Below are positions 29,447 through 36,137 of a DNA stretch of 64,000 bases, one piece after another; the stretch's first letter is position 1; each line of letters starts with the position of its first letter. The notes under the pieces were generated by a model. The model worked only from the letters and a program-made list of their open reading frames with translations, was not told the origin of the DNA and searched no databases. Position numbers and translations under genes: made by a program. The stretch is from a virus (taxonomy: Duplodnaviria > Heunggongvirae > Uroviricota > Caudoviricetes > Demerecviridae), in IMG/VR virus record IMGVR_UViG_2974579171_000001, positions 1 through 64,000 of that record; one strand, 5' to 3'.

Positions 29447-30394
29447 ATGTTTAATACTAAAAATATGAAAGAACTGACTTCTGAGCAGAAAGTAATTCGT
29501 ACTATTAAACGTTGGGGTATTGGTGCTGTAGTTGGTTTAGCGGGTTTAATCCTAGCTTTTAATTCATATACTATTGTTTCTGATGGTACGGTTAAAACCC
29601 AAACATTCCTGGGTAAAGTAGACCCTAATCCAGTATTGCCTGGTTTCCATCTTGTAAACCCGTTTGCATCTTTCGATACTTTTAGTACAAAAGATATTGC
29701 TGTAAAATTAGATAAACTTCAGGTTCCTAGTCAGGACAAGTTTAAATCCACTGTTGACCTGACTGTTATGTTGCAGTTTGATGGTTCTAAGGCACCGATT
29801 AACCGTATTAACGCAGGTACTCAGGATCAGGCACTAGACAAATATGTAACTGAAAAATTACTGTCTACTATTCGTGAGTTTGGTAAGTCTGTACCTAAAG
29901 CACAAGATTTATTTGATGCTAAAATTCAGGCTCAATTGCAAACTGCAATTCAACAGGAAGTTGAAGAGTATGCACGCCCATATGGTTACACAGTTAAGCA
30001 GGTATTCCTTCAGGATATTACTCTGCCACCAGTAATTATGGAACAGGTACAGAATACCAAAGTTCGTGAAGAGCAAGTTAATGCTGCGAAAGCTGAACTG
30101 GCTCGCGTTGAACAAGAAGCTCAGCAGAAAGTTAAACAAGCAGAAGCAGACCGTGAAGCTCGCAACAACCAAGCTATTGCTAATGAACGTGACGCAGATG
30201 CTAAACTATACGCAGCTAAAAAAGAAGCTGAAGCTAACGCCGCATTGCAACGTACCATTACTCCTGAGATGATTCGCTGGAAGCAACTGGAAGTTGAAAT
30301 GATTCGTGCTCAGAAGTATCAAGGTGGTGTTCCTCAGACTGTGGTAGGTACTGGCTACGATGGTCAAATGATCATGGATATGCGTAACAAGTAA
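29447..30394 (+). CDS. SPFH/band-7 (HflK/C-stomatin-like) membrane protein
   Basis: 315 aa. N-terminal transmembrane segment (GIGAVVGLAGLILAF), band-7 core, and a C-terminal coiled coil rich in AEA/QQK repeats. Confidence 0.65.
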   Translation: MFNTKNMKELTSEQKVIRTIKRWGIGAVVGLAGLILAFNSYTIVSDGTVKTQTFLGKVDPNPVLPGFHLVNPFASFDTFSTKDIAVKLDKLQVPSQDKFKSTVDLTVMLQFDGSKAPINRINAGTQDQALDKYVTEKLLSTIREFGKSVPKAQDLFDAKIQAQLQTAIQQEVEEYARPYGYTVKQVFLQDITLPPVIMEQVQNTKVREEQVNAAKAELARVEQEAQQKVKQAEADREARNNQAIANERDADAKLYAAKKEAEANAALQRTITPEMIRWKQLEVEMIRAQKYQGGVPQTVVGTGYDGQMIMDMRNK

Positions 30395-30416
30395 TAGTTA
30401 CACGTAATCTTCGAAC

Positions 30417-30453
30417 CAAGCCCGCGTTTCCTCCGAGAGCGCGGGCTTTTCTG
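30417..30453 (+). terminator. rho-independent terminator
   Basis: AAGCCCGCG...CGCGGGCTT stem followed by TTCTG. Confidence 0.6.
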
Positions 30454-30471
30454 TATTTAAGATAAAAGAAA

Positions 30472-30506
30472 AGCCCCTAAGTCTTTCGACTAGGGGCTTT
30501 ATTGTT
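30472..30506. terminator. bidirectional terminator between convergent transcription units
   Basis: AGCCCCTA...TAGGGGCT stem flanked by A-run and T-run on both sides. Confidence 0.55.
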
Positions 30507-30513
30507 TGGTTCT

Positions 30514-30708
30514 TTAGAACCATATACTCTTGTTACAGCAACCACCCATACGGGAGACCAATCTTGACTGAAAATCTACTCTAGGGGGCAGGATAAGAGT
30601 AGGCTTAAAGGCAAACGGATTGAACGCCGGTATTTGCGTAAACATTGCTGGAGAGCAACAACGTGCTACAGGCATTGGGCAGCACGAAATAGATTTTCTG
30701 CAACACAT
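30514..30708 (-). CDS. Cys-rich small protein (64 aa)
   Basis: Perfect AAGGAGG Shine-Dalgarno 5 nt upstream of the ATG (minus strand). 10 Cys in 64 residues. Confidence 0.4.
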   Translation of the reverse strand: MCCRKSISCCPMPVARCCSPAMFTQIPAFNPFAFKPTLILPPRVDFQSRLVSRMGGCCNKSIWF

Positions 30709-30717
30709 AATTCCTCC

Positions 30718-31134
30718 TTAGGAGTTATTACCTCCATTTTGAGCTTTTGCAACCTGGCTTTGGCAGAAGCTATTAAACTTACCCATAAGTGATACAAGCT
30801 GCTTCCCATCCTCTGTCTTTGCGAAGTCTTCGAAAAGGGCTAGTACTGCCTGTCCTTCCGCAGAAACCTGCGGTTGTTGGGTTTGTTGCTGAACTTGCTG
30901 CTGCGGCATCTGTTGCTGCATTTGTTGAGACATTTGCGACTGCCCGCTCATTTGCTGCATCATTTGCATAGGACTTACACTTCCAGGGTTTTGCTGGAGT
31001 TGTTGCTGCATCTGTTGTGCTTCTGCTAAACGCTGTTGCAACTGTTGTAAGTAGGGGTTATCCAGACCCGGAACGGGCTGCTGGGAGCCCATACTTTGAT
31101 TAAGTCCGTTATTTACAAAACCATATTTACTCAT
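30718..31134 (-). CDS. Gln-rich low-complexity protein
   Basis: 138 aa, about 35 percent Q (MQQQLQQ..., QMQQQMPQQQVQQQTQQPQ). Confidence 0.55.
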   Translation of the reverse strand: MSKYGFVNNGLNQSMGSQQPVPGLDNPYLQQLQQRLAEAQQMQQQLQQNPGSVSPMQMMQQMSGQSQMSQQMQQQMPQQQVQQQTQQPQVSAEGQAVLALFEDFAKTEDGKQLVSLMGKFNSFCQSQVAKAQNGGNNS

Positions 31135-31155
31135 AATGGGCTCCTCCCCTTAATA

Positions 31156-32142
31156 TTAAGCCGGCAGTTTAGCCTGCAGACCAGCCAGAGTCTGAGTGAT
31201 AGCACCAAGACTTAAAGCGATTTGATTAATTACCTGACCGTTAGCACCGCTACCCGCAGCGATTGCTTCACGTAGACGACACGCGTCTAACTCATCCTGA
31301 ATACGCGCAGTAGTTACACCAGCGATCGCAGTCTGAAGTTCACAGCAACATTCAGCGATCTGACGTTCCAGAGAGTTCTGGTTAGCACACATCTGAGCCT
31401 GAACAGCGGCAAACTGGTTATTAGTTTGTAAAGTCTGCTGGAAAGCGATCTGTGCAGAATCAAACTTATCTTGTGCACGAGCTATCTGGTTAGCTGCGAA
31501 AGATTGATCAATCTGGCGAGAAAGATCGAACTGACCCTGAATAACGTTTCGAGTTTCCTGGCAGATCTGATTAGACAGATTAGCACCTGTACCATAGATC
31601 GTAGTTAGTACAGACTGAGTATCACGGCTCTGGTTTTGGGATGTCTGGCTAAAACCATTGTTAACTGCGCTTAAAACAGCTCCAGTACCCTGGTTAGCTT
31701 CTGTACGAGTAGTGTTAATAGCTGCTAGAATACTAGCGGTATCTTGGTTCTGAAGTACTGCATCAACTGCGGTACCTTCACCAACTACACCACGTCCACC
31801 GAATCAGCCGAAACCACCGAATCCGCCTGTTAGTAGAGCACCAATTAGGATAGCTCCAAATAGTCCCATACCTTCACCGCCGAAAGCACCTGCGTTTGCT
31901 GGGTAACCACCCATTAGGCCAGGGAAGCCATTAGTGAATACGTTTACTGGTTCTTGCATTTTATGTTTTCCATATTTATGACAATGTTCATCATCATCTT
32001 CTTCATCATCATCGTGTTCACGATGTTTTTCTTCGTAGGCTCTGACCTTCTCCCACTTTTTCTTATCTGATTCCTCGTGACGGTGCAGTTCTGCTGCAAC
32101 GCTAGCGACGGTCTCAGGACTCTTAGCTACTTCTTCTGTCAT
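31156..32142 (-). CDS. 329-codon reading frame interrupted by one in-frame TGA (codon 113; plus-strand 31804-31806)
   Basis: ATG 32142 lies 8 nt after AGGAGG. N-terminal acidic/His-rich region then Gly-rich hydrophobic segment ...GGFGGFG, then TGA, then FGGRGVVGEG... The frame is fully open through a long Q/N/T/S-rich region to the stop at 31156. The first downstream ATG is at 31392. Confidence 0.5.
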
Positions 32143-32348
32143 TTTTGACACCTCCTAGTATATAGAAAATGTGTGTCTCTTTGATCACTCATCCATAACA
32201 TATACTTTACACTACCCCAGCGAAAATGTCAAGGGGTCTTTAAAAATTGCCCCTGAATTTTTAGTGGGGTCACAAATTTTGGTCCTCACCACTTATCTGC
32301 TATCCTTAAGTGCCCTATGATTTTCCTCTAAAAAGTTAAAAAATTTGA

Positions 32349-32377
32349 TTGCTTGAATGCTAAATTCTCTGTATAAT
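32349..32377 (+). promoter_or_regulatory. T5-type early promoter
   Basis: TTGCTT, 17 bp, TATAAT, then atatctataaatttga. Confidence 0.55.
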
Positions 32378-32407
32378 ATATCTATAAATTTGAAAGAGGA
32401 ACCAAAT

Positions 32408-32926
32408 ATGAATGTTGATGAGCTAACACAGCACCTCTTATCTAGAGGATTTGATACAGATAAATATCATTGCTGGTTAAGTCCGGAAGGATGGCTAACA
32501 GTCCCGTTGTATGACTTCTCTGGGATGTTGAGGGGCTATCAAACTTATAATCCTTCTGCTCCAAAAGGTCATGGTAAGTGCCCCTTTGAAGCTAAATACT
32601 TTACTTATTCTACTACCCAGTGTGTATGGGGACTAGAAACTCTCAATGGAAATGAAAAAGTAGTATTGATTGCTGAATCTGTATTTAAGGCAGTTGCGTT
32701 ACATAACGCTGGTTATCCAGCCCTGGCAATGTTGGGTTCTTCTCCAGGAAAGGCGTTATTAAAGCAACTAAAATTATTACCTTTTAAATTGGTAGCTGTC
32801 GGGGATAATGATCCTGCGGGTGAAAAATTTGCTAGAAAATTAAACGGCTTTGTTTCTCCCGTAGATGTGGATGAGATGTCTACCGAAAACTTGAAAAATT
32901 TTCTTGCTATGAAGCTAAATTTCTAA
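32408..32926 (+). CDS. small stand-alone TOPRIM-domain protein
   Basis: 172 aa. VVLIAESVFKAV (conserved Glu) ... VAVGDNDPAGEKFA (DxD) is the TOPRIM signature. Confidence 0.5.
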   Translation: MNVDELTQHLLSRGFDTDKYHCWLSPEGWLTVPLYDFSGMLRGYQTYNPSAPKGHGKCPFEAKYFTYSTTQCVWGLETLNGNEKVVLIAESVFKAVALHNAGYPALAMLGSSPGKALLKQLKLLPFKLVAVGDNDPAGEKFARKLNGFVSPVDVDEMSTENLKNFLAMKLNF

Positions 32927-32932
32927 TATAAT
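32904..32932 (+). promoter_or_regulatory. T5-type promoter embedded in the 3' end of the TOPRIM gene, feeding tRNA-Ser/tRNA-Met
   Basis: TTGCTA, 17 bp, TATAAT, then atatcttataaattcgg. Confidence 0.5.
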
Positions 32933-32947
32933 ATATCTTATAAATTC

Positions 32948-33033
32948 GGAAGAATAGCATAATGGTATTGCAGCAGATTGCTAATCTGTCGGTTTGAAAT
33001 ATAGCCTTGTGGGTTCGATTCCCACTTCTTCCG
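32948..33033 (+). tRNA. tRNA-Ser (anticodon GCT), type II
   Basis: Acceptor ggaagaa/ttcttcc, anticodon arm gcaga-ttgctaa-tctgt, long variable arm, T-arm gtggg-ttcgatt-cccac, encoded CCA. Confidence 0.8.
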
Positions 33034-35689: not shown

Positions 35690-35875
35690 ATGTCCAAGAA
35701 TGTAATTGCACAGCTAGAAGTTCATCGTGATAGCACTATCAACAATATTGAAGTTGAGAAGAAATACATCGAAGAACTTAAACATGATATACTAGTAAGT
35801 CTTAATCGTCTTAATGTACGAAAAGAGTTTCTTAAGGAACTTAATGCAGCTATTGAAAAACTCAAAGCTGAGTAA
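35690..35875 (+). CDS. hypothetical coiled-coil protein
   Basis: 61-aa ORF with a Shine-Dalgarno site. Confidence 0.45.
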   Translation: MSKNVIAQLEVHRDSTINNIEVEKKYIEELKHDILVSLNRLNVRKEFLKELNAAIEKLKAE

Positions 35876-35884
35876 ATGAATTAT

Positions 35885-35958
35885 GCGACCGGGGCTGGCT
35901 TGGTAATGGTACTCCCCTGTCACGGGAGGGAATGTGGGTTCAAATCCCATCGGTCGCG
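35885..35958 (+). tRNA. tRNA-Asp (anticodon GTC)
   Basis: Acceptor gcgaccg/cggtcgc, anticodon arm ctccc-ctgtcac-gggag, T-arm gtggg-ttcaaat-cccat, encoded CCA. Confidence 0.8.
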
Positions 35959-35978
35959 CCAAATAAGGTAGGTTAGCT

Positions 35979-36137
35979 ATGGAACGTAGGGAGTTTACTC
36001 CAGAAGAGATAGAGCAGATAAAAGAATCTGCTATGAAAAATGCTAGAATATCTCTGTCACTGGAAGGTATCATTATAAGTGATGTAAACTTTGAAAAAAT
36101 CAAAGCCATAGCTGATGAACTGGAAAAAGTAATTTAA
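35979..36137 (+). CDS. small hypothetical protein (52 aa)
   Basis: MERREFTPEEIEQIKE... Below the ORF-track cutoff. Shine-Dalgarno GGTAGG. Confidence 0.3.
   Translation: MERREFTPEEIEQIKESAMKNARISLSLEGIIISDVNFEKIKAIADELEKVI

What the first reader, a model, noticed from the sequence alone, without database searches (positions are those of the whole stretch)
30514..32340. F2. Antisense, GC-richer three-gene insert of low-complexity proteins with a non-T5-type promoter, embedded in the plus-strand early/tRNA region
All neighbouring genes from 15.6 to 57.8 kb are plus-strand and driven by the stereotyped T5 early promoter. This block is minus-strand and convergent with them. It is bounded by a bidirectional terminator (30472-30506). 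It starts from a different promoter type (TGATCA...17 bp...TATATA upstream of 32142). It is visibly GC-richer. It encodes the TGA-interrupted gene, a 138-aa protein that is about 35 percent glutamine (30718-31134), and a 64-aa peptide with 10 Cys that has a perfect AAGGAGG RBS (30514-30708). Q/N-rich prion-like composition is unusual for phage early proteins.
Basis: seen in the sequence. Interest (0 to 1): 0.55.

Follow-up and report, generated by a model that had tools for sequence, protein, structure and literature searches.

The report
Dispensable antisense three-gene cassette of T5-like phages
This is the long-annotated but uncharacterised T5.077-T5.078-T5.079 operon of T5-like phages, a dispensable accessory cassette that also occurs in unrelated phage families, and in this phage its largest gene carries a private stop-codon mutation.

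Summary
The window is Salmonella phage SE11 (Tequintavirus). The minus-strand block 30514-32142 is real. It is the orthologue of T5 genes T5.077/078/079, which T5, BF23 and phage 5 records already annotate with their own promoter (P12) and a bidirectional terminator (ter1).

The in-frame TGA is a private GGA-to-TGA change; nine sequenced relatives read Gly or Ser there. GC is higher (46% against 39%), but for the largest gene this reflects amino-acid composition, because its GC3 is typical.

About half of T5-like records lack the block. The remnants they keep show deletion, not insertion. A published T5 knock-down screen scores all three genes 'Not Fit'.

The same A-B-C cassette also sits in a diverged T5-like contig, an N4-like contig and Pseudomonas phage KPP23. 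Protein A belongs to a family of thousands of uncharacterised phage proteins, marked by a glycine-rich hydrophobic segment, a long amphipathic helix and an invariant CCC motif. No database assigns a function.

Best reading: a non-essential, probably membrane-directed accessory module. The mechanism is inferred only.

The parts
32204..32232 (-). Promoter P12: -35 TTGACA (32232-32227), 17-nt spacer, -10 TAAAGT (32209-32204), preceded by an A/T-rich stretch. The 75-nt P12 window of the T5 records maps to 32252-32178.
   Evidence: This is the only consensus hit in 30300-32500. It lies inside the P12 feature of the T5, BF23 and phage 5 records. Both hexamers are invariant in 10 T5-like phages.
32143..32197 (-). 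Inferred 55-nt 5' leader ending in the SD AGGAGG (32156-32151).
   Evidence: The transcription start is inferred from the position of the -10 box and from the span of the P12 annotation. It has not been mapped. The leader is almost invariant across 10 phages, whereas gene A has dS of 0.4-0.66.
31156..32142 (-). Gene A, the orthologue of T5.077 (phrog_8119), 328 codons including the in-frame TGA. Layout: acidic/His-rich N-terminal helix; conserved MQEPVNVFTNG motif; uncharged Gly-rich hydrophobic segment (GMGLFGAILIGALLTGGFGGFGGFGG); then about 200 aa of Q/N/A-rich amphipathic helix with an invariant CCC motif.
   Evidence: Translation. phrog_8119 match at E = 2.9e-204. dN/dS is 0.13-0.22. Kyte-Doolittle 19-residue maximum is 1.72 at residues 94-112. 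AF2 predicts helices at 127-169, 177-278 and 304-326. Hydrophobic periodicity of 3.6 residues has p of about 0.01.
31804..31806 (-). In-frame TGA splitting gene A in SE11 into the annotated fragments gp043 (31804-32142) and gp042 (31156-31392).
   Evidence: Relatives carry GGA or GGT (Gly) at this codon, and T5 carries AGT (Ser). In SE11 a single G-to-T change gives TGA. Among the 60 records shown in the protein search, only SE11 and INF11 (its match lies in two pieces; cause not examined) have the match under two annotated genes; the other annotated records show one. No suppressor or Sec tRNA is among the 22 tRNAs of the window.
30718..31134 (-). Gene B, the orthologue of T5.078 (phrog_7894), 138 aa. 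It has a Gln/Met-rich centre and a conserved C-terminal segment EGQAVLALFEDFAKTEDGKQLVSLMGKFNSFCQS.
   Evidence: phrog_7894 match at E = 1.7e-79. dN/dS is 0.08-0.14 in most pairs and 0.29 for phage 5 against BF23. Composition. The C-terminal motif is conserved in KPP23, a diverged T5-like contig and an N4-like contig. The 'cAMP-dependent protein kinase' label in some records is not backed by any domain match.
30514..30708 (-). Gene C, the orthologue of T5.079, 64 aa. It starts MCC and has 8 Cys in four CC pairs and 8 Pro. Its SD AAGGAGG overlaps the stop codon of B.
   Evidence: The ORF is present in all nine other T5-like loci examined; sequences are at least about 89% identical in eight, and GSW6 has an altered C-terminus. 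A Cys-pair peptide with the same layout sits at the same position in KPP23, in a frame that record does not annotate, and in L038. Too few substitutions exist for a firm dN/dS.
30472..30506 (.). Bidirectional intrinsic terminator ter1, which closes the operon.
   Evidence: Free energy is -20.6 kcal/mol (z = -4.9) on the minus-strand RNA and -20.2 (z = -3.6) on the plus-strand RNA, each followed by a U-run. It is annotated in T5 and BF23. Two hairpin alleles differ by several stem positions and appear by eye to keep a stem; the second allele was not folded. The remnant in block-less phage bux no longer folds.
30543..32297 (.). The segment missing from block-less Epseptimaviruses (bux, Ace). It marks the natural deletion boundaries.
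   Evidence: In bux and Ace, homology runs up to 30542 and resumes at 32298. An independent deletion in phage SESL joins about 32094 to about 30704 and is unique to that record.

Best explanation
The block is a self-contained accessory operon (P12 promoter, genes A, B and C, terminator ter1). It was ancestral to T5-like phages, has been exchanged as a unit with other virulent phage families, and is dispensable for growth on laboratory hosts.

Inferred mechanism:
- Host sigma-70 RNA polymerase transcribes it from P12, probably early in infection.
- Protein A is held at or in the cytoplasmic membrane by its uncharged Gly-rich hydrophobic segment. It presents a roughly 200-residue amphipathic, cysteine-bearing helical domain that probably oligomerises.
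- The Gln/Met-rich protein B and the tiny Cys/Pro-rich peptide C are its translationally linked partners.
- Together they probably modify the infected cell envelope for a conditional benefit, such as protection against a membrane-acting host defence, exclusion of competing phages, or control of envelope integrity. They do not provide a core replication, assembly or lysis function.

In SE11 itself, gene A is broken by a nonsense mutation, so the module is probably decaying, or the record carries a sequencing error.

What is shown: operon anatomy, orthology, dispensability, repeated loss, purifying selection where the block is kept, and conservation of the cassette across families. What is inferred: membrane location, complex formation, timing and biological role.
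For: - Anatomy and orthology with T5.077-079, P12 and ter1.
- Purifying selection on A and B (dN/dS 0.08-0.29), with near-invariant promoter and leader.
- Three independent losses: the SE11 nonsense codon, the SESL internal deletion and the bux/Ace deletion, which leaves an ORF C remnant and a dead ter1.
- About half of T5-like records lack the block.
- The T5 CRISPRi-ART screen scores T5.077, T5.078 and T5.079 as 'Not Fit' with unknown function. Its annotation labels the neighbouring gene T5.076 as anti-retron (PMC11879866, supplementary files 8 and 16).
- The same A+B(+C) cassette occurs in Pseudomonas phage KPP23, a diverged T5-like contig and an N4-like contig. In the N4-like and T5-like cases it is again antisense to its neighbours.
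- Hydrophobic segment: Kyte-Doolittle 1.72 over 19 residues. Across the family there is an uncharged stretch of median 34 residues.
- Long helices with 3.6-residue amphipathic periodicity.
- SD overlap between B and C.
Against: - No experiment or database match assigns any function. Pfam, NCBIfam, PADLOC, PDB sequences and Foldseek all gave nothing.
- The AF2 model has only low to moderate confidence (pLDDT 49, then 63; pTM 0.26).
- Membrane topology cannot be deduced. Both flanks of the hydrophobic segment lack positive charges, and the N-terminal tail of T5-type A is long and highly charged.
- B and C have no signal peptides, so contact with a periplasmic domain of A would be impossible if A is oriented N-in/C-out.
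- 'Not Fit' in one laboratory host is also what a gene with no function at all would give.
- Expression timing has never been measured for this operon in the sources I could search.
Confidence: 0.45

Rival explanations
1. Lysis or membrane-fusion accessory. In this reading A acts like an i-spanin or a class I viral fusion protein. A Gly-rich, fusion-peptide-like segment and a long helical domain with cysteines would pull membranes together, with the Pro/Cys-rich peptide C playing an o-spanin-like role.
For: - The segment GLFGAI...GG followed by long helices and a Cys cluster resembles the layout of a fusion peptide plus helix.
- A profile search of PDB sequences returned several influenza HA2 chains aligned from the fusion peptide through the long helix.
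- In Firmicutes phages, distant A-like genes lie just downstream of holin and endolysin genes.
- C is Pro-rich and Cys-rich, as Rz1 is (the Rz1 comparison is from general knowledge).
Against: - The HA2 matches have E = 0.1-0.6, the same as unrelated ATP synthase P-loop hits, so they are noise.
- Papers on the T5-like phages Shivani and OSYSP report Rz/Rz1-type spanins in the lysis cassette.
- C has no signal peptide or lipobox, and A has no second membrane anchor.
- Knock-down of T5.077-079 has no fitness cost.
- Strict heptad periodicity is weak.
Confidence: 0.1
2. Self-assembling low-complexity scaffold. In this reading the FG/Gly-rich segment of A, the Gln/Met-rich protein B and the Cys-rich peptide C form a condensate, an amyloid-like assembly or a disulfide/metal-linked assembly in the infected cell. 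It might concentrate or sequester host or phage factors. Membrane insertion would not be the main point.
For: - B is 49% Gln over residues 29-89, and A carries GGF repeats.
- The family has a median of 10 Cys and an invariant CCC.
- The N-terminal domain of some A orthologues is His-rich.
- Firmicutes and crAss-like cassettes place A-like genes among further low-complexity proteins: P/Q-rich, Q/N-rich and RG/Y-rich.
- AF2 gives no compact fold.
Against: - This rests on composition alone. No assay has been done.
- The hydrophobic core reaches the usual transmembrane threshold.
- The Gln-rich linker of B varies in length and sequence, while its flanking helices are the conserved parts. That argues that the linker is not the functional core.
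Confidence: 0.15
3. The TGA is programmed recoding (selenocysteine, or read-through helped by phage tRNAs), so that SE11 makes both a short and a full-length A.
For: - The reading frame stays open for 215 codons after the TGA.
- The phage encodes its own tRNA-Trp(CCA).
- UGA is the leakiest stop codon in enterobacteria (general knowledge).
Against: - All nine other loci examined have a sense codon at this position: GGA, GGT or AGT.
- The 236-member cluster of closest relatives is represented by an uninterrupted 330-aa protein.
- No tRNA has a UCA anticodon.
- A recoding signal cannot have evolved around a private single-base change.
Confidence: 0.03
4. Recently acquired foreign island. The block would have been inserted into the SE11/Tequintavirus lineage from a GC-richer donor.
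For: - GC is higher (46% against 39%), and GC3 is high in B and C.
- The block has its own promoter and terminator.
- Its presence varies among T5-like phages.
- The cassette also occurs in unrelated phage families, so it has moved horizontally at some time.
Against: - Block-less genomes keep a remnant of ORF C and a decayed ter1, which indicates deletion.
- The block is present at the same site in both Tequintavirus and Epseptimavirus, with divergence like that of a resident gene (dS 0.4-0.66).
- The GC3 of A is typical of the genome.
Confidence: 0.1

Closest known systems
T5 genes T5.077, T5.078 and T5.079 (T5p075-077; 'ORF 326aa / 138aa / 64aa' of BF23 and phage 5) with promoter P12 and terminator ter1
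   Same: These are direct orthologues. They share the order and orientation, the position between the band-7/SPFH gene and the Toprim gene, and the same promoter hexamers and terminator.
   Different: SE11 carries a private TGA in the first gene. Its record splits that gene into two 'hypothetical proteins' and does not annotate the 64-aa ORF.
Phage 'morons' and lytic-conversion genes, such as T5 llp (comparison from general knowledge)
   Same: Like them, the block is an autonomous transcription unit with its own sigma-70 promoter and intrinsic terminator, set against the flow of neighbouring genes. It is dispensable, variably present and movable between phages.
   Different: No host-phenotype change has been shown. 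The cassette has three genes of unknown function rather than a single lipoprotein or toxin gene.
Two-component spanins (lambda Rz/Rz1)
   Same: Both pair a membrane-anchored protein carrying a long helical, cysteine-bearing domain with a very small Pro/Cys-rich partner encoded next to it.
   Different: C has no lipoprotein signal. The operon is outside the lysis cassette. Papers on T5-like phages report separate Rz/Rz1 genes. Knock-down has no fitness effect.
Class I viral fusion subunits (influenza HA2)
   Same: Both have a Gly-rich hydrophobic peptide (GLFGAI...) followed by long helices and a cysteine cluster.
   Different: The sequence match is at noise level (E of about 0.1). A has no C-terminal membrane anchor, and there is no evidence of fusion activity.
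PHROG families phrog_8119, phrog_16490 and phrog_9288 (all 'unknown function')
   Same: A matches phrog_8119 over its full length. Its distant relatives match phrog_16490 and phrog_9288. All share the GGFGGFGG segment and the CCC(E) motif.
   Different: The T5/N4/KPP23 clade adds an acidic/His-rich N-terminal domain of 60-100 aa and pairs A with B and C. The Firmicutes and crAss-like clades pair it with other proteins.

Membership tests
T5.077-079 orthologous operon of Markadamsvirinae | Full-length sequence match of A and B to the T5 proteins or their PHROGs | tested here: met
   A matches phrog_8119 at E = 2.9e-204 and B matches phrog_7894 at E = 1.7e-79. The A region is 86.6% identical to T5 at the DNA level.
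T5.077-079 orthologous operon of Markadamsvirinae | Same genomic position and orientation, with promoter P12 and terminator ter1 | tested here: met
   The block lies between the band-7 gene and the Toprim gene and is antisense to both. The hexamers and hairpin are conserved.
T5.077-079 orthologous operon of Markadamsvirinae | Intact reading frame of the first gene | tested here: not met
   SE11 has TGA where relatives have GGA, GGT or AGT.
Accessory 'moron-like' transcription unit | Own promoter and own terminator, independent of flanking operons | tested here: met
   Promoter and terminator activity themselves come from annotations in the T5 and BF23 records and were not measured here.
Accessory 'moron-like' transcription unit | Dispensable and variably present among close relatives | tested here: met
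   About 220 of 411 records carry it. Two independent deletions were found. The genes are 'Not Fit' in the T5 CRISPRi-ART screen.
Accessory 'moron-like' transcription unit | Confers a phenotype on the host or infected cell | not testable with these tools
   This requires genetics.
Two-component spanin (Rz/Rz1) | o-spanin with a lipoprotein signal peptide and lipobox | tested here: not met
   C starts MCCRKSISCCP. It has no hydrophobic signal region and no lipobox.
Two-component spanin (Rz/Rz1) | i-spanin with an N-terminal transmembrane domain and a periplasmic coiled coil | tested here: inconclusive
   There is one hydrophobic segment, but it follows a charged tail of about 90 aa. Topology is unresolved and heptad periodicity is weak.
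Two-component spanin (Rz/Rz1) | Located in the lysis cassette and needed for lysis | tested here: not met
   The annotated endolysin gene is about 3 kb away on the other strand. Papers on the T5-like phages Shivani and OSYSP report separate spanins. The genes are 'Not Fit'.
Class I fusion protein (HA2-like) | Significant sequence or fold similarity | tested here: not met
   The best HA2 hit has E = 0.099. Foldseek against the PDB gave 0 hits.
Selenoprotein or programmed UGA recoding | UGA conserved in orthologues, and a cognate tRNA or recoding signal | tested here: not met
   All nine other loci have a sense codon at this position. No UCA-anticodon tRNA is present.
Prion-like Q/N-rich protein | A long Q/N-rich low-complexity region | tested here: met
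   B has 30 Gln among 61 residues (positions 29-89).
Prion-like Q/N-rich protein | Self-propagating aggregation | not testable with these tools
   This requires biochemical or cell-based assays.

The most novel reading that the evidence does not exclude
The A-B-C cassette and the several-thousand-member GGFGGFGG/CCC protein family it belongs to could encode a previously unrecognised, widespread phage machine. In it, a Gly-rich membrane-active segment and a long cysteine-bearing helical rod would act on the infected cell's membrane. Possible roles are neutralising membrane-acting abortive-infection effectors or blocking genome entry by competing phages. B would serve as a Gln/Met-rich holder of the hydrophobic segment, and C as a Cys-pair cofactor.
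Probability: 0.15. Interest if true: 0.7.

Novelty: new member of a known kind. Interest (0 to 1): 0.35.

Why it matters
For SE11 itself the finding is ordinary: a known, dispensable T5 operon carrying a private nonsense mutation.

The wider value is a pointer. T5.077-079 are experimentally tractable representatives, in a model phage with knock-down data, of a very large and completely uncharacterised family of phage proteins. These proteins travel as a cassette between Demerecviridae, an N4-like (Schitoviridae-type) contig and Pseudomonas siphophages. They have distant relatives in crAss-like and Firmicutes gut phages.

Working out what the T5 cassette does would annotate thousands of 'dark matter' genes. 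It would also explain why the cassette is kept under purifying selection in some lineages and repeatedly lost in others.

Tried and rejected
- **Family libraries.** Pfam, NCBIfam and PADLOC scans of A, B, C and distant relatives gave only sub-threshold, composition-driven hits such as RIFIN, Granulin and SMC.
- **PDB sequence profile search.** Only noise-level hits appeared: ATP synthase P-loop and influenza HA2, at E of about 0.1.
- **Structure prediction.** AF2 with 20 and then 109 sequences gave pLDDT 49 and 63, extended helices and no compact fold. Foldseek against the PDB gave 0 hits.
- **Literature.** Searches for T5p075-077 and T5.077-079 gave 0 papers. HIDEN-SEQ and a transposon study contain no T5-like data.
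- **Spanin idea.** Rejected as a membership claim because papers on T5-like phages report Rz/Rz1 elsewhere and C lacks a lipobox.
- **Recoding or selenocysteine.** Rejected.
- **DNA pattern scan.** A viral-contig scan for the TGA context found no T5-like contigs. It did hit GGFGGFGG-coding genes of other phages by chance, which led to the wider family.
- **Rfam.** The only hit, over the two terminators, was sub-threshold (anti-hemB, 28 bits against a gathering score of 49.5). I treat it as a chance resemblance of tandem hairpins.
- **Coiled coil.** Strict heptad periodicity is not significant in most segments, so I describe the domain as amphipathic helix, not as a proven coiled coil.
- **Topology.** The positive-inside rule could not settle it.
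Full report
**Identity of the window.** The 2-kb region matches Salmonella phage SE11 (MK972715 / NC_048786, genus Tequintavirus) at 100% identity and identical coordinates. In total 411 phage records match at least part of it.

**The observation.** Three consecutive minus-strand ORFs are present:
- A, 31156-32142, interrupted by TGA at 31804-31806;
- B, 30718-31134, 138 aa;
- C, 30514-30708, 64 aa.

Each ORF has a strong Shine-Dalgarno sequence, and the TAA of B lies inside the AAGGAGG of C. Among ORFs of at least 90 aa between 15.6 and 57.8 kb, these are the only credible minus-strand genes. The one other candidate, 35792-36109, overlaps annotated plus-strand genes and a tRNA.

The hairpin at 30472-30506 folds at -20.6 kcal/mol on the minus-strand RNA (z = -4.9) and -20.2 on the plus-strand RNA (z = -3.6), each followed by a U-run.

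Block GC is 46.2%, against 39.2% for the window. The other genes average 39.1% with SD 3.0.

Three details in the finding needed correction:
- B is 27.5% Gln overall and 49% only within residues 29-89.
- C has 8 Cys, not 10.
- The GC excess of the largest gene lies in codon positions 1 and 2. Its GC3 of 0.33 is at the 59th percentile of window genes. Only B and C have high GC3, 0.45 and 0.43.

**The block is already annotated in the type phage.** Records of T5 (AY734508, NC_005859), BF23 and phage 5 annotate the same three ORFs, as 'ORF 321-327 aa', 'ORF 138 aa' and 'ORF 64 aa' (T5p075-077, or T5.077-079). They also annotate a promoter P12 upstream and an 'efficient bidirectional rho-independent terminator' downstream. 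Another T5 record (AY587007) calls the promoter a 'putative early promoter' and labels B a 'cAMP-dependent protein kinase catalytic subunit'. No domain search supports that label.

**The promoter.** The consensus scan finds one sigma-70-type site in 30300-32500: TTGACA, a 17-nt spacer and TAAAGT at 32232-32204 on the minus strand. Transferring the 75-nt P12 feature from the T5 record gives 32252-32178. That is what -55 to +20 would be around a start site about 7 nt after TAAAGT.

It would place the start site inside the Shine-Dalgarno sequence, and it fails the scan's criteria. Both hexamers, the A/T-rich upstream stretch and the whole 55-nt leader are almost invariant in ten T5-like phages, although gene A differs among them at dS of 0.4-0.66. 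The promoter is therefore a conventional host-type promoter, not a different class.

**The TGA.** In nine other T5-like loci this codon is GGA or GGT (Gly), or AGT (Ser) in T5. SE11 differs from its closest relatives by one G-to-T change. The 236-member cluster of closest relatives is represented by an uninterrupted 330-aa protein. In the tblastn listing of 60 records, SE11 is one of only two with two annotated genes under the match; the other, INF11, matches in two pieces. None of the 22 tRNAs in the window reads UGA. The TGA is a private nonsense mutation or a sequencing error, not a designed feature.

**Insertion or deletion.** About 220 records contain gene A, by blastn and by tblastn. About 190 further records match only the two ends of the 2-kb query, which lie about 250 bp apart in those records.

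In two of these, the Epseptimaviruses bux and Ace, homology with the window runs from the band-7 gene through ter1 to position 30542. That includes the last 29 nt of ORF C. Homology resumes at 32298, upstream of P12. The ter1 remnant in bux has lost its stem (-5.7 kcal/mol, z about 0). A remnant of coding sequence plus a decayed terminator indicates deletion of a block that was once present.

Other Epseptimaviruses (Stitch, EscoHU1, GSW6) still carry the block at the same site. Phage SESL has a different internal deletion, joining about 32094 to about 30704, and this is unique to that record.

Together with the SE11 stop codon, this makes three independent inactivations. Where the genes are retained they are under purifying selection. 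Pairwise dN/dS is 0.13-0.22 for A and 0.08-0.14 for B in most pairs, with 0.29 in the least-diverged B pair. C has too few substitutions to judge, but its protein is at least about 89% identical in eight of the nine other T5-like loci; in GSW6 the C-terminus is altered.

**Dispensability from the literature.** The supplementary tables of the CRISPRi-ART study (PMC11879866, files 8 and 16) list T5.077, T5.078 and T5.079 as 'unknown function' (phrog_8119, phrog_7894, singleton) and as 'Not Fit' in the T5 knock-down screen. The same tables label the neighbouring T5.076, the Toprim protein annotated 'DNA primase' in SE11, as 'anti-defense; subverts retron-mediated defense'. Full-text searches for the T5 locus tags found no paper discussing these genes.

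**The proteins.**

Protein A:
- It begins with an acidic segment that is His-rich in some orthologues and is predicted helical, then a conserved MQEPVNVFTNG motif.
- Next comes an uncharged segment, GMGLFGAILIGALLTGGFGGFGGFGG, with a Kyte-Doolittle 19-residue maximum of 1.72.
- About 200 residues rich in Gln, Asn, Ala and Thr follow, carrying several Cys including a CCC triplet.
- AlphaFold2 predicts helices at 127-169, 177-278 and 304-326, with no compact fold. Mean pLDDT was 49 with 20 sequences and 63 with 109 sequences; pTM was 0.26.
- Hydrophobicity shows 3.6-residue periodicity (p about 0.01). Heptad periodicity is weak, so I call the domain amphipathic helix rather than proven coiled coil.

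Protein B has helical ends and a Gln/Met-rich centre of variable length. Peptide C has four CC pairs and eight Pro.

Pfam, NCBIfam, PADLOC, a PDB sequence profile search and Foldseek gave nothing significant. The PDB search did return several influenza HA2 chains aligned from the fusion peptide into the long helix. Their E-values of 0.1-0.6 equal those of unrelated ATP synthase P-loop hits, so this is at most an analogy of layout.

**The cassette occurs beyond T5-like phages.**
- *Pseudomonas phage KPP23 (62.8 kb).* It encodes a 321-aa A homologue that is 60% identical over the C-terminal half. Next comes a 143-aa B homologue with the same C-terminal motif. A roughly 60-aa MCC...CC...CC peptide follows, in a frame that record does not annotate.
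- *A diverged T5-like contig.* It carries A, B and an MCC peptide, followed by a terminator.
- *A 71-kb N4-like contig encoding a virion RNA polymerase.* It carries A and B plus a C-like remnant with no evident start codon. This unit is again antisense to the genes on both sides.

A profile search of 1.84 billion representative proteins found 681 relatives at E below 1e-3. A word-indexed profile search found at least 4,827 clusters at E below 1e-5, none with a Pfam domain or an informative name. Across 109 aligned members the CCC triplet is invariant and the GGFGG segment nearly so. The distant members match phrog_16490 and phrog_9288, both of unknown function.

These distant members sit in crAss-like contigs and in Firmicutes-type phages, just downstream of holin and endolysin genes in three of the four Firmicutes-type loci examined. 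They lie within a conserved set of other low-complexity proteins rather than with B and C.

**Interpretation.** What is shown is an autonomous operon that is ancestral in Markadamsvirinae. It is conserved where kept, lost repeatedly, non-essential in the laboratory, and shared as a unit with unrelated virulent phages. This is the profile of an accessory, conditionally useful module.

What it does is inferred. The uncharged Gly-rich hydrophobic segment makes membrane association of A the simplest reading. Gene linkage and co-conservation make B and C its likely partners. The neighbourhood in T5 is accessory in character, given the tRNAs and the gene T5.076 that the CRISPRi-ART annotation calls anti-retron. 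That suggests a role in conflict with the host or with other phages, or in conditioning the envelope.

Topology cannot be settled, because neither flank of the hydrophobic segment carries positive charges.

Rival readings are a lysis or fusion accessory, a self-assembling low-complexity scaffold, recoding of the TGA, and recent foreign insertion. Each is weighed in the rival-explanations section; the last two are contradicted by the comparative data.

**Verdict.** For SE11 the finding is a correct sighting of a known, uncharacterised T5 operon, with some mis-read details and an interpretation that is only partly right. The block's existence is not new. The cross-family conservation of the cassette and the size of the protein family are, as far as my searches show, undescribed. 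They make T5.077-079 a reasonable entry point for experiments.

Noticed in passing
window 30418-30448 (motif GAGCGCG at about 30438-30444): T5 and BF23 records place one of the major single-strand interruptions of T5 DNA (the '32.6% nick', consensus Pu-pGCGC) between ter1 and the band-7 gene. In SE11 the matching GCGC motif sits inside the plus-strand terminator hairpin of the band-7 gene.
   Followed up: partly
window 32408-32926 (+): The gene annotated 'DNA primase' in SE11 has only a Toprim_2 match. It is the orthologue of T5.076, which the CRISPRi-ART supplementary annotation labels 'anti-defense; subverts retron-mediated defense' and scores 'Semi-Fit'. The SE11 product name is probably misleading.
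   Followed up: partly
L024, L025, L035-L037 (the region corresponding to window 32300-33000): In all five Epseptimavirus loci fetched, nadR-like NMN adenylyltransferase and pnuC genes occupy the place where Tequintaviruses have the Toprim gene. This module swap is independent of whether the antisense block is present.
   Followed up: no
L026 5936-6118 (Pseudomonas phage KPP23, AB910392): The annotated ORF072 of KPP23 is in the wrong frame. The conserved product is a 60-aa peptide, MCCNQPVPQCC...GRCCKKFDCCS, homologous in layout to T5.079.
   Followed up: yes
L030 4734-8369; L010 9248-11547; L042 5976-8756; L044 6286-9013: In Firmicutes-type phages the A-like gene lies in a conserved cassette just after the tail or lysis genes. 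The set includes a P/Q-rich protein, a Q/N/M-rich protein of 72-81 aa, a Cys-bearing beta-rich protein of 131-155 aa (two of these were scanned against Pfam together with A-like proteins and gave no match), and an RG/Y-rich protein. In three of the four loci a small sigma70_r4/GerE-like or HTH-like gene lies upstream.
   Followed up: partly
window 32143-32260 (-): The P12 promoter and the 55-nt leader are far more conserved than synonymous sites of the downstream gene. This suggests a regulatory constraint on the 5' untranslated region, for example a binding site or an RNA structure.
   Followed up: no
window 30514-30708 (-): Synonymous divergence falls along the operon. For the same phage pairs, dS is 0.4-0.66 in A, 0.16-0.2 in B and 0-0.08 in C. 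This could reflect mosaic recombination or an additional nucleotide-level constraint near the terminator.
   Followed up: no
L029 4817-5092; L039 1098-1304: A small PF21825 gene (crAss001_48-related; shown as 'Sequestin' in the precomputed table) lies within 1-3 kb of the A-like gene, both in a crAss-like contig and in the N4-like contig. This could be coincidence or a shared accessory neighbourhood.
   Followed up: no
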